A stretch of DNA of 32,000 nucleotides, from NCBI RefSeq assembly GCF_000155895.1, contig NZ_DS995298.1:1290001-1322000 (forward strand), in the 5' to 3' direction. Position 1 is the first letter of the stretch, and the number at the start of each line of letters is the position of its first letter. The stretch is from Candidatus Pelagibacter sp. HTCC7211. GTDB lineage: Bacteria > Pseudomonadota > Alphaproteobacteria > Pelagibacterales > Pelagibacteraceae. This document shows positions 26,925 to 28,218 of the stretch, piece after piece. Under the pieces are notes generated by a model, which was not told where the DNA came from, searched no databases, and saw only the letters and a program-made list of their open reading frames with translations. A program made the translations under genes and the position numbers.

Positions 26925-27539
26925 TTAATATTGTTGAATTACAGCAATAATAATTGCAATGATAATTAAAACACTCGCAGAAATTGTATTAATTACTTTT
27001 GGATTTGCTTTTATCCAAACAATTAATTTTCTAGCAAGCATAGCATAAGCAACTAAAGATAAAAAATCTAAAACTACATAAGTTGTGATTAAAATAAAGA
27101 ATTGAACAACATAATTTGAATTAAAATCAATAAACTGTGGAAAAATTAATGGAAAAAACATCCAAGCCTTAGGACTTGTGCCTGCAACTAAAAAACCATC
27201 TCTAAAAAAAGAAAAAAAACTTTTTGATGAAATATTATTTGAACTTATATCTTTTGGTTTTGAGTTATAAAGATCATAAGCAAGATATAATAAATAAATT
27301 ATTCCTATCCATTTAAAAATATTTAAAAAATTTGGATTATCTAAAAAAAATGAGCCAATGACAAAGATGACAAGAGTTGCCTGAATAAAGTTTGCACTTA
27401 TATCTCCTAATGCAGTCCAAATACATTTTTGAACACCATAATTCATAGAATAAGAAATTATGACAATTCTTGGTGTACCTGGTGTAATAAATAAAAATAA
27501 GATTATTTGTAAAAATAGAAAATAGTTTATGGGGAACAT
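26925..27539 (-). CDS. LysE/RhtB-family amino-acid exporter
   Basis: 204 aa with about 6 helices. The N-terminal motif FITPGTPRI corresponds to the family's PGP(N) block. Confidence 0.8.
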   Translation of the reverse strand: MFPINYFLFLQIILFLFITPGTPRIVIISYSMNYGVQKCIWTALGDISANFIQATLVIFVIGSFFLDNPNFLNIFKWIGIIYLLYLAYDLYNSKPKDISSNNISSKSFFSFFRDGFLVAGTSPKAWMFFPLIFPQFIDFNSNYVVQFFILITTYVVLDFLSLVAYAMLARKLIVWIKANPKVINTISASVLIIIAIIIAVIQQY

Positions 27540-27553
27540 TTTAAGTATGCGTG

Positions 27554-27600
27554 GATAGTCCTTAAAAACCGGGAGCTAAAGATGGCTAAGAAGGACTATC
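27554..27600. promoter_or_regulatory. GC-rich structured element (10-bp perfect stem enclosing 27 nt) in the LysE/DUF2805 divergent spacer; class unknown
   Basis: GATAGTCCTT (27554-27563) and AAGGACTATC (27591-27600) are exact reverse complements. The interior AAAAACCGGGAGCTAAAGATGGCTAAG can form a second small stem (AGCT/GGCT). The element stands out against otherwise A/T-only spacer DNA. Confidence 0.4.
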
Positions 27601-27663
27601 AAATACATAATATCACTCTCTAAAAAAAATGCATTAAACATTTTTTTCAAATATAAAGGATTT

Positions 27664-27960
27664 ATGAAAAAAAAAGGTCACACCCCTATTACCAGGGTCA
27701 AAAATCCAGAGCCAGATGTAAATGACCCAGATTGGGTTATTTGGGCAGCTTGGGCTGACCGGATCACTTTTGAAGATATTGAAAAGAAGACTGGGAAAAC
27801 AGAGTCTGAGGTAATTAAAATTATGAGACGATCTATTAAGCCTGCCTCATTCAGGTTGTGGCGAAAACGAGTTAATCAAAAAAGTATTAAACACCGAAAA
27901 AAATTTGAATACTCAAGAAAACAAATTACTAGTAAAATTAAAAAGAATGATTATTTATAA
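27664..27960 (+). CDS. DUF2805 / TIGR03643-family small protein
   Basis: 98 aa. The block WVIWAAWADRITFEDIEKKTGKTESEVIKIMRRSIKPASFRLWRKRV matches the conserved core of this family as I recall it. Confidence 0.75.
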   Translation: MKKKGHTPITRVKNPEPDVNDPDWVIWAAWADRITFEDIEKKTGKTESEVIKIMRRSIKPASFRLWRKRVNQKSIKHRKKFEYSRKQITSKIKKNDYL

Positions 27961-27963
27961 TTC

Positions 27964-28218
27964 ATGAAATTAGTAACTATTTATACAGGTCCTCTTTGCA
28001 ATTACTGTGATGCTGCTAAAAGATTATTAGCTAGAAATAATGTAGAATATAAAGAAATTAACATTGCAACAGTTGAAGGTGCTATGGAAGAAATGATTAA
28101 AAAAGCAAATGGTAAGAGAACAATTCCACAAATCTTTTTTGATGACCAGCACATTGGTGGTTATGATGAAACCAGAGCTTTGGAAAAAGAGAATAAATTA
28201 TTAGAATTACTGAAATAA
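27964..28218 (+). CDS. grxC: Glutaredoxin (GrxC-type) with a C-N-Y-C active site
   Basis: 84 aa. It is colinear with E. coli Grx3 (IYTxxxCxYCxxAKxLL, TIPQIFFDDQHIGGYDE). The active site reads CNYC rather than the usual CPYC. Confidence 0.88.
   Translation: MKLVTIYTGPLCNYCDAAKRLLARNNVEYKEINIATVEGAMEEMIKKANGKRTIPQIFFDDQHIGGYDETRALEKENKLLELLK

What the first reader, a model, noticed from the sequence alone, without database searches (positions are those of the whole stretch)
27540..27663. GC-rich stem-loop with embedded SD + 13-codon sORF in the divergent LysE / DUF2805-grx spacer: candidate unclassified cis-regulatory RNA
Spacers in this window are almost pure A/T, yet this 124-bp divergent region contains GCGTGGATAGTCCTTAAAAACCGGGAGCTAAAGATGGCTAAGAAGGACTATC.

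A perfect 10-bp stem (27554-27563 with 27591-27600) encloses 27 nt that include a small inner hairpin. It also contains a strong SD-like GGGAG 6 nt upstream of an ATG (27582), which opens a 13-codon ORF (MAKKDYQIHNITL, stop 27621-27623). The 3' arm of the stem is made of codons 4-7 of that ORF, so translation and folding would be mutually exclusive. That is the logic of a leader-peptide or riboswitch-type control element.

Read on the minus strand, the same hairpin ends 14 nt before the LysE start and could occlude its initiation region. I could not match the element to any riboswitch class I know (glycine, SAM-II/V, TPP, guanidine, fluoride, glutamine, preQ1).
Basis: seen in the sequence. Interest (0 to 1): 0.6.

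Follow-up and report, generated by a model that had tools for sequence, protein, structure and literature searches.

The report
Known rhtB hairpin with antisense target
Its loop is an exact mirror of the ribosome-binding site of a tiny lysine-rich protein gene elsewhere in the genome, so it is probably a small antisense regulator.

Summary
In detail: a perfect 10-bp stem (27554-27563 with 27591-27600), an SD-like GGGAG, an ATG at 27582 and a 13-codon frame.

The element is not unclassified. Rfam RF01814 ('rhtB', Meyer et al. 2009) matches 27536-27618 on the minus strand at 88 bits (gathering score 55). The plus strand scores only 25.6 bits.

Across 122 loci from the window's genus:
- A TGnTAnnnT extended -10 box ends 6-8 nt before the stem on the rhtB-sense strand.
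- Every one-sided stem change gives G·U on that strand.
- Pairs 9 and 10 covary.
- The plus-strand sORF is cut to 3 codons in a third of loci.

The leader-peptide reading therefore fails.

New here: the 13-nt apical loop is the exact complement of SD-to-AUG (GGGAGCUAAAGAUG) of an unannotated 17-35-aa Lys/Arg/Ala peptide gene 1.16 Mb away. All 77 genus genomes sampled carry this 17-mer, nearly all exactly twice. None of 73 genomes from other genera carries it, although three of them have the peptide gene with a different spacer. The hairpin persists in 13 loci that lack rhtB. No Hfq or ProQ was found.

Best reading (about 0.55): a 5'-leader or small RNA that occludes the peptide's start site, like IhtA-HctA. 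Other agents of this scan reached the same link starting from the peptide gene. No transcript data exist.

The parts
27536..27618 (-). Full match to Rfam RF01814 (rhtB motif)
   Evidence: 88 bits against a gathering score of 55, E 1e-16, model positions 1-83 of 83. It is the only copy in the genome.
27554..27600 (-). 47-nt bulged hairpin. Lower stem is 27600-27591 with 27563-27554; inner helix AGCC/GGUU is 27587-27584 with 27570-27567.
   Evidence: On 21 distinct variants, 97.9% of cells are paired, pairs 9 and 10 show changes on both sides, and the covariation score exceeds all 500 shuffles.
27571..27583 (-). 13-nt apical loop AUCUUUAGCUCCC, the proposed antisense seed
   Evidence: Invariant in nearly all loci. 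It is the exact complement of SD-to-AU(G) of the polybasic peptide gene at G000:C1:160084-160100.
27566..27592 (-). Extended region complementary to the peptide mRNA in this genome (25 of 27 positions)
   Evidence: Alignment A2. RNAduplex gives -36.3 kcal/mol, the best non-self site in the whole genome.
27607..27615 (-). Extended -10 promoter TGaTATTAT for the hairpin/rhtB transcript. The predicted start is at or 1-2 nt before the stem base (about 27600-27602).
   Evidence: TGnTAnnnT is present in 104 of 107 distinct loci, with the hexamer ending 6-8 nt before the stem (alignment). This is inferred from conservation; no TSS data were available.
27630..27637 (.). Near-invariant box TTAATGCA (contains the palindrome AATGCATT) between the two divergent promoters
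   Evidence: Columns at 90-100% identity in the 67-sequence spacer alignment. Function not tested.
26925..27539 (-). LysE/RhtB-family exporter gene, 14 nt downstream of the hairpin
   Evidence: Pfam LysE PF01810, E 1.8e-20. NCBIfam matches to RhtB and LeuE fall below their cut-offs.
27664..27960 (+). Divergent DUF2805 (TIGR03643) gene, followed by glutaredoxin at 27964-28218
   Evidence: PF10985, E 6.9e-25. It lies divergent to the element in 68 of 70 and 47 of 48 loci.
27582..27623 (+). It is not a conserved gene; it is the by-product of the mirrored start site.
   Evidence: Lengths of 3-21 aa, with 36 of 107 loci stopping after 3 codons.

Best explanation
**What it is.** The element is the rhtB RNA motif (RF01814), made on the minus strand.

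**How it is made (inferred).** An extended -10 promoter (27607-27615) starts transcription at the base of a 47-nt hairpin. The hairpin is therefore the extreme 5' end of the transcript that runs on into the LysE/RhtB exporter gene.

**What it does (inferred).**
- The 13-nt apical loop and its flanks act as an antisense seed. They are complementary to the Shine-Dalgarno sequence, the spacer and the AUG of an unannotated 35-aa Lys/Arg/Ala peptide gene 1.16 Mb away.
- Pairing would block 30S binding and lower synthesis of that polycation.
- The long perfect match fits a cell in which no Hfq or ProQ was found.
- In roughly 40% of relatives a U-run follows the stem, so a short stand-alone RNA of about 55 nt may also be released.

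**What is shown.** Family membership, strand, structure, conservation, complementarity and co-distribution.

**What is inferred.** The transcription start, actual pairing in the cell, the direction of control, and any effect on rhtB.
For: - **Family and strand:** RF01814 scores 88 bits on the minus strand and 25.6 on the plus strand.
- **Structure:** the stem is supported by two covarying pairs. Six independent one-sided changes all give G·U on the rhtB-sense strand.
- **Promoter:** TGnTAnnnT ends 6-8 nt before the stem in 104 of 107 loci.
- **Second locus:** scanning for the loop 15-mer found a second locus in many Pelagibacteraceae genomes. In this genome it is SD GGGAG + CTAAAG + ATG of a 35-aa polybasic ORF. 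That ORF has its own TTGACA-N17-TAAAAT promoter, a 5' hairpin and a terminator.
- **Co-distribution:** the 17-mer GGGAGCTAAAGATGSCT (at most 1 mismatch) occurs in 77 of 77 genus genomes, nearly always exactly twice. It occurs in 0 of 73 genomes of other genera, and the reversed-pattern control gave 0.
- **Constraint on the target:** SD-to-ATG is invariant in 55 distinct target loci apart from the first G, while flanks vary. In genera without the hairpin the syntenic peptide gene has other spacers.
- **Same-genome pairs:** in 37 genomes the perfect complementarity is 14-21 nt. Duplex energy is -32 to -42 kcal/mol, against -15.5 to -17.3 for the hairpin itself.
- **Specificity:** genome-wide, this is the best non-self duplex site. 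It scores -36.3 against -31.4 for the next site, with a background mean of -11.3 and sd 4.3.
- **Accessibility:** the target start region is predicted to be unstructured.
- **Independence from rhtB:** the hairpin is intact in 13 loci where LysE is gone.
- **Chaperones:** no Hfq or ProQ was found in a 99.9%-complete genome.
Against: - No transcript, 5'-end or 3'-end data could be retrieved. The HTCC7211 table of Hou 2016 is cut off in the held copy.
- No convincing compensatory change between loop and target was seen, only joint invariance. In the MPKK lineages, this genome included, a C·C mismatch at +4 is uncompensated.
- The one joint change (CCC to CC in the loop with GGGAG to AGGAG in the target) is in the unpublished genome G109.
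- A 14-21-bp duplex inside a loop closed by a 10-bp stem needs partial stem melting.
- RNAduplex ignores the cost of opening each RNA's own structure.
- About 60% of loci, this one included, have no U-run after the stem, so a discrete small RNA is not assured.
- Why the seed sits on the rhtB leader is unexplained.
- All loci come from one genus and are not independent.
Confidence: 0.55

Rival explanations
1. The hairpin is a purely cis-acting control element of rhtB, such as a small riboswitch, a protein-binding site or a translational blocker. It is opened or stabilised by an unknown ligand or protein. Its likeness to the peptide start site is only a relic of how it arose.
For: - The hairpin ends 4-14 nt before the LysE ATG and no SD lies in the linker.
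- The only SD-like bases (AAGGA, UAGGA or UUGGA) are in the 3' arm.
- The whole 27-nt interior is conserved, including G31 and G32, which do not pair with the target in all lineages.
- Meyer 2009 raised a regulatory role.
Against: - The hairpin is kept unchanged in 13 loci that have lost LysE and often the whole Liv operon.
- The distance from the SD-like bases to the ATG varies from 9 to 19 nt.
- This reading does not explain why the peptide gene's SD-ATG spacer is frozen only in the genus that has the hairpin.
- There is no multi-helix or pseudoknot core.
Confidence: 0.2
2. The hairpin is a generic 5'-terminal stabiliser or a partial intrinsic terminator, with no sequence-specific partner.
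For: - The predicted start is at the stem base, the layout of 5' stabiliser hairpins (my own knowledge of the ompA leader).
- 41 of 107 loci have at least 6 U in the 9 nt after the stem.
- Meyer 2009 noted terminator-like U-runs.
Against: - A stabiliser or terminator needs a stem, not an invariant 27-nt interior.
- This window has no U-run after the stem.
- Only 2 of 13 rhtB-less loci have a strong U-run, read from the flanks printed.
Confidence: 0.1
3. The element works at the DNA level. The inverted repeat, or the GGGAGCTAAAGATG box shared by the two loci, is an operator for a DNA-binding protein, perhaps the divergent DUF2805 product.
For: - Meyer 2009 noted the inverted repeat.
- A double-stranded DNA site reads the same in either orientation, so a shared box at two loci is compatible with this.
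- The element is linked more tightly to DUF2805 (115 of 118 loci) than to LysE.
Against: - All six one-sided stem changes are G·U on one strand, and pairs 9 and 10 covary. DNA recognition does not require that.
- Half-sites are not enriched (17 seen, about 20 expected), and there is no second inverted repeat in the genome.
- The arms are 27 bp apart.
- The shared box coincides exactly with SD-to-AUG.
- The element persists in three loci without DUF2805 (L046, L048, L141).
Confidence: 0.07
4. One reading: a plus-strand leader RNA of DUF2805-grx in which translation of a 13-codon sORF competes with the hairpin.
For: A strong SD-like GGGAG and an ATG lie inside the loop, and the 3' arm is made of codons 4-7.
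Against: - The sORF is not conserved; 36 of 107 loci stop after 3 codons.
- The plus strand scores 25.6 bits against 88 for the minus strand.
- The G·U pairs become A·C on the plus strand.
- The linker upstream on the plus strand varies in length and sequence, so there is no fixed promoter.
- Candidate DUF2805 promoter boxes lie downstream of the element.
Confidence: 0.03

Closest known systems
Rfam RF01814, 'rhtB associated element' (Meyer et al. 2009, BMC Genomics 10:268, PMC2704228)
   Same: It is this family. The match covers the full model length at 88 bits. It is the same bulged hairpin, in the same place between a hypothetical gene and rhtB, and is restricted to Pelagibacter.
   Different: Nothing differs in the element. 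The paper assigned no function or target; the antisense match to the polybasic peptide gene is not in it.
IhtA sRNA and hctA mRNA of Chlamydia (PMC3469542, PMC4355289)
   Same: A small RNA stem-loop occludes the start codon of the mRNA for a lysine-rich, histone-H1-like protein. Stem-loop integrity matters (abstracts).
   Different: - The IhtA contact is only 6-7 nt around the AUG and does not cover the SD. Here 14-21 nt cover both the SD and the AUG.
- The sequences are unrelated.
- The target here is a 17-35-aa peptide, not a full histone-like protein.
- The RNA here heads an exporter mRNA.
- Nothing has been tested at the bench.
MicF-ompF and the trans-encoded type I antitoxin RNAs (IstR-1/tisB, OhsC/shoB). 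Comparison from my own knowledge, not tested here.
   Same: An RNA made from a separate locus pairs with roughly 20 nt of a target start region and blocks translation. Such an RNA can arise by copying part of its target.
   Different: MicF depends on Hfq and pairs imperfectly. Type I toxins are hydrophobic membrane peptides, whereas this target is a conserved, syntenic polycation with a strong promoter.
5'-leader or riboswitch RNAs that also act in trans (SreA of Listeria). Comparison from my own knowledge.
   Same: The 5' part of an mRNA doubles as a base-pairing regulator of a distant gene.
   Different: No ligand-binding aptamer is evident here, and premature termination is plausible only in the roughly 40% of loci with a U-run.

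Membership tests
Rfam RF01814 (rhtB motif) | Covariance-model score at or above the gathering score of 55 bits | tested here: met
   88 bits on the minus strand, full model length.
Rfam RF01814 (rhtB motif) | Single bulged hairpin with a conserved loop and bulge, and covariation or compatible changes in the stem | tested here: met
   97.9% of cells paired, 2 pairs with changes on both sides, 3 pairs with G·U changes.
Rfam RF01814 (rhtB motif) | Lies between a hypothetical gene and rhtB in Pelagibacter; sometimes before proC or other genes | tested here: met
   LysE lies downstream in 63 of 70 and 37 of 43 loci; otherwise proC, AzlCD or an OMP gene follows. One copy in 75 of 77 genus genomes (73 above the gathering score), and none in 73 genomes of other genera.
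Trans-acting base-pairing sRNA | Extended complementarity to a target's translation start region, specific within the genome | tested here: met
   14 nt perfect (25 of 27) in this genome, and the best non-self site genome-wide.
Trans-acting base-pairing sRNA | Complementarity conserved across species | tested here: met
   14-21 nt in 37 same-genome pairs; two copies of the 17-mer in nearly all of 77 genomes.
Trans-acting base-pairing sRNA | Compensatory changes between seed and target | tested here: inconclusive
   Both sides are almost invariant. There is one G·U-compatible change (G011), one joint change (the unpublished G109), and uncompensated mismatches (G148, and +4 in the MPKK lineages).
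Trans-acting base-pairing sRNA | Own transcript with defined ends, and a measured effect on the target | not testable with these tools
   The promoter is inferred from conservation only. No RNA-seq or TSS table was available.
Leader-peptide attenuator | Conserved short ORF whose translation controls alternative structures | tested here: not met
   The plus-strand sORF is 3-21 codons and stops at codon 4 in 36 of 107 loci. On the minus strand, 50 of 107 loci have no uORF start, and frames differ among the rest.
Riboswitch | Match to a known aptamer class, or a conserved multi-helix or pseudoknot ligand pocket with an expression platform | tested here: not met
   No Rfam riboswitch family matches even at E up to 10. 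The structure is a single hairpin. Ligand binding itself cannot be tested here.
Intrinsic terminator | GC-rich stem with a short loop, directly followed by a U-run | tested here: not met
   No U-run follows the stem in this window. The terminator scan finds nothing here. The loop is 27 nt. Only 41 of 107 relatives have a U-rich tail.

The most novel reading that the evidence does not exclude
The rhtB leader hairpin and the polybasic peptide mRNA may form a reciprocal mRNA-mRNA switch. The hairpin loop would shut off the Lys/Arg-rich polycation, a likely nucleoid or ribosome coat. Pairing would also melt the stem, freeing the AAGGA in its 3' arm and turning on the LysE-type exporter and the amino-acid uptake operon behind it. 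That would give SAR11, which has few protein regulators and in which no Hfq was found here, an RNA-only link between its basic amino-acid economy and a chromatin-like protein.
Probability: 0.15. Interest if true: 0.75.

Novelty: new member of a known kind. Interest (0 to 1): 0.5.

Why it matters
The RNA motif has been catalogued since 2009, so the hairpin as an object is already known. It has stayed an orphan with no function. SAR11 is the most abundant marine bacterium and is known for having very few protein regulators.

A specific, conserved, genome-unique antisense match to the start site of a hidden polycationic mini-protein turns the orphan into a directly testable regulator-target pair. 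It also draws attention to a gene that annotation pipelines miss. If confirmed, it would be a chaperone-independent small-RNA circuit controlling a histone-tail-like peptide in a free-living oligotroph.

Tried and rejected
- **Plus-strand sORF / leader peptide:** rejected because the frame is not conserved.
Its ATG is part of the -10 box, 50 of 107 loci have no ATG, and frames differ among the rest.
- **Known riboswitch or other Rfam family:** nothing besides RF01814, even at E up to 10.
- **Operator for a regulon:** half-sites are at chance frequency and there is no second inverted repeat.
- **Simple sigma-70 and terminator consensus scan:** uninformative. It needs a -35 box and found nothing at the element.
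- **TSS evidence from the Red Sea mdRNA-seq paper, which used HTCC7211 as reference:** the relevant table is cut off in the held copy and the text does not mention the locus. I also could not verify that this genome is that strain.
- **Naming the polybasic peptide:**
  - no Pfam or NCBIfam hit;
  - the exact sequence is not in the protein collection;
  - the 35-aa query is too short for the homologue search;
  - a 50-aa relative gave no scored hits, probably because of low complexity.
- **Second-best duplex sites in the rRNA operon (about 46.3 kb):** judged to be chance, since they need large internal loops.

Full report
**1. Observation**

The sequence is as described.
- GATAGTCCTT (27554-27563) and AAGGACTATC (27591-27600) form a perfect 10-bp inverted repeat around 27 nt.
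- GGGAG (27571-27575) precedes an ATG at 27582 by 6 nt.
- The frame reads MAKKDYQIHNITL and stops at 27621-27623.
- On the minus strand the stem ends 14 nt before the LysE ATG.

The neighbours are a LysE-family exporter (26925-27539, minus strand; PF01810) and a divergent DUF2805/TIGR03643 gene (27664-27960) followed by glutaredoxin.

Folding is better than shuffled controls, and clearly more so on the minus strand: z is -5.2 there against -2.5 on the plus strand. The minus-strand leader alone gives z -3.5.

**2. Identity**

The element is not unclassified. Rfam RF01814 ('rhtB') matches 27536-27618 on the minus strand over the whole model at 88 bits, against a gathering score of 55. The plus strand reaches only 25.6 bits, and no other family matches even at E up to 10.

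The family comes from Meyer et al. 2009 (PMC2704228). They described a 'single bulged hairpin' between a hypothetical gene and rhtB in 'Cand. P. ubique' and in about 1250 metagenomic copies. They assigned no function, and they mentioned both terminator-like U-runs and an inverted repeat as open possibilities.

The genome has one copy. In a sample of 151 Pelagibacterales genomes:
- 75 of 77 genomes of the window's genus have a match, 73 of them above the gathering score.
- None of 13 genomes from four other genera of the family has one.
- None of 60 genomes of the other family has one.

**3. Strand, promoter and structure**

I collected 122 loci, giving 107 distinct elements with flanks and 21 distinct 47-nt hairpins.
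- **Promoter.** On the rhtB-sense strand, a TGnTAnnnT extended -10 box is present in 104 of 107 loci. Its hexamer ends 6-8 nt before the first stem base. The bases between box and stem are not conserved. This places the predicted transcription start at the foot of the hairpin. It is an inference from conservation, not a measurement.
- **Stem.** On the 21 variants, 97.9% of cells are paired, and pairs 9 and 10 switch between U-A and A-U. The covariation score exceeds all 500 shuffles and all slid controls.
- **Strand of the pairing.** Six independent one-sided changes at pairs 2, 3, 6 and 10 all give G·U on this strand. They would be A·C on the plus strand. If transitions fell at random, the chance of six out of six is about 0.016.
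- **Plus-strand sORF.** It is not conserved. Lengths run from 3 to 21 codons, and 36 of 107 loci read MAR* or MAK*.

The leader-peptide logic therefore fails on both strands.

**4. Context**

- LysE follows the hairpin in 63 of 70 loci and in 37 of 43 loci. The linker is 4-14 nt and has no SD.
- DUF2805 is divergent upstream in 68 of 70 and 47 of 48 loci.
- In 13 loci LysE is absent, often with the whole Liv operon behind it. The intact hairpin is then followed by proC, by an outer-membrane beta-barrel gene plus proC, or by AzlC/AzlD. The AzlC/AzlD case is in the unpublished genome G109.
- Three loci lack DUF2805 (L046, L048, L141).

The element therefore survives without either neighbour. That argues for a role that is not purely cis.

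**5. A distant partner**

An exact-match scan for the loop 15-mer returned many chance hits in unrelated phyla. It also returned a consistent second locus in Pelagibacteraceae.

In this genome that locus lies at G000:C1:160084-160100, 1.16 Mb from the hairpin. Read on its own sense strand it contains, in order:
- a TTGACA-N17-TAAAAT promoter;
- a 9-bp 5' hairpin;
- an unstructured stretch carrying GGGAG-CTAAAG-ATG;
- a 35-codon ORF, MPKKRKKAAKKTKKK...RRKR;
- a terminator.

The ORF is conserved as a 17-35-aa Lys/Arg/Ala peptide in 57 loci. It has no Pfam or NCBIfam hit and is not in the protein collection.

The hairpin's 13-nt apical loop, AUCUUUAGCUCCC, is the exact complement of GGGAGCUAAAGAU. 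With the flanks, 25 of 27 positions match in this genome.

**6. Specificity and conservation of the match**

- **Co-distribution.** The 17-mer GGGAGCTAAAGATGSCT (at most 1 mismatch) is present in 77 of 77 genus genomes, almost always exactly twice: once in the hairpin and once at the peptide start. It is present in 0 of 73 genomes of other genera. The reversed-pattern control gave 0 everywhere.
- **Target invariance.** Across 55 distinct target loci, SD-to-ATG is invariant apart from the first G, while the bases on both sides vary.
- **Other genera.** The peptide gene sits at the same synteny, after an acyl-CoA synthetase, in three other genera. Their SD-ATG stretches differ: AGGAGAGCAAAGATG, GGGAGGAACGGAGATG and GGGAGAAAAAAATG. 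The start region is thus frozen only where the hairpin exists.
- **Same-genome pairs.** In 37 genomes the longest perfect complementarity is 14-21 nt. RNAduplex energy is -32 to -42 kcal/mol, against -15.5 to -17.3 for the hairpin's own fold.
- **Genome-wide rank.** In this genome the peptide start is the best non-self site at -36.3 kcal/mol. The next site scores -31.4 and needs large loops. The background mean is -11.3 with sd 4.3.
- **Origin.** The shared ATGGCTAA, which is also found in the other genera, suggests the hairpin arose from an inverted copy of the peptide gene's start region.

**7. Most likely mechanism**

- *Shown:* a conserved RNA hairpin on the rhtB-sense strand whose open loop mirrors the SD and AUG of one other gene, with co-distribution and joint invariance of the two.
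- *Inferred:* the hairpin is the 5' end of the rhtB transcript. In the roughly 40% of relatives with a U-run after the stem, it may also be released as an RNA of about 55 nt. Its loop pairs with the peptide mRNA and blocks initiation.

No Hfq or ProQ was found in a 99.9%-complete genome. That fits long, perfect loop-to-linear pairing rather than short chaperoned seeds.

Full pairing would have to open the top of the stem. This could in turn expose the AAGGA in the 3' arm, and so a reciprocal effect on rhtB is possible but untested.

*Weak points:*
- There are no transcript data.
- There is no real compensatory covariation, and in this genome's lineage a C·C mismatch at +4 is uncompensated.
- The sampled genomes are related, so they are not independent.
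- The reason for the link to an exporter gene is unknown.

**8. Rivals**

- A cis-only switch (0.2) fits the short SD-less linker. It does not explain retention without rhtB or the frozen target spacer.
- A plain stabiliser or terminator (0.1) does not need an invariant 27-nt interior, and this window has no U-run.
- A DNA operator (0.07) is disfavoured by the G·U pattern, the covariation and the lack of other sites.
- The plus-strand sORF model (0.03) is refuted as set out above.

**9. Comparison with known systems**

By membership the element is RF01814. By mechanism the nearest tested system is IhtA-hctA in Chlamydia. There an sRNA loop occludes the start codon of a lysine-rich histone-like protein's mRNA. 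That contact is only 6-7 nt and spares the SD. MicF-ompF, the trans-encoded type I antitoxin RNAs and leader-derived sRNAs such as SreA are looser analogues, cited from my own knowledge.

**10. Earlier notes of this scan**

I found the second locus from the hairpin side before looking at earlier notes. Several follow-up agents had reached the same hairpin-to-start-site link from the peptide-gene side on other genomes. Three first readers had flagged the hairpin elsewhere. These are AI notes, not independent evidence. They supplied the IhtA/HctA comparison, which I checked in the papers' abstracts. Some of them state that loop and target 'co-vary'; my sample supports joint invariance only.

**11. 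Claims resting on the unpublished genome G109**

- the most divergent hairpin (51.6 bits);
- the AzlCD context;
- the single joint change of loop and target.

No conclusion depends on these.

**12. Verdict**

The element nonetheless gains a specific, testable partner that I did not find in the literature.

Noticed in passing
window 27629-27638: A near-invariant box TTAATGCA, containing the 8-bp palindrome AATGCATT, sits between the two divergent promoters. It is about 17 nt upstream of the extended -10 box of the hairpin transcript. It may be a shared operator or an unusual -35 element.
   Followed up: partly
window 27650-27666: A conserved TATAAA lies 6 nt before the DUF2805 ATG, so the DUF2805-grx mRNA could be leaderless. 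An AAGGA 4 nt before the ATG is also present, so a short-leader mRNA is equally possible.
   Followed up: no
G000:C1:159982-160175 (L191:1982-2175, minus strand): An unannotated 35-aa Lys/Arg/Ala peptide gene with a strong promoter, a conserved 5' UTR hairpin (CGAAUCA..UGAUUCG, with a variable loop) and a terminator. It lies between an acyl-CoA synthetase gene and a CarD-like gene. The peptide is 17-35 aa in genus relatives and up to about 50 aa in other genera.
   Followed up: partly
L207 (G085:C1:11291-12307): The polybasic gene reads through to 85 aa in another frame (MPKKRKKLLKKLRKK...). This is either a frameshift in an A-run or an assembly error.
   Followed up: no
L031:1600-2617 (G109, unpublished genome): The hairpin is followed by AzlC and AzlD, a different amino-acid exporter, instead of LysE. 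In five other loci (L034, L041, L048, L057, L069) it is followed after 200-450 nt by a gene of about 220-240 aa, which in L034 has an outer-membrane beta-barrel domain, and then by a proC-like gene. In L025 a proC-like gene follows directly. These look like deletions of the LysE-Liv block that stop at the hairpin.
   Followed up: partly
G000:C1:46296-46460 (rRNA operon): The second and seventh best predicted duplex sites for the hairpin loop fall in what looks like the 23S rRNA GTPase-associated-centre region (GGCUUAGAAGCAGCCAUCC...). They need large internal loops, so I judged them chance matches.
   Followed up: no
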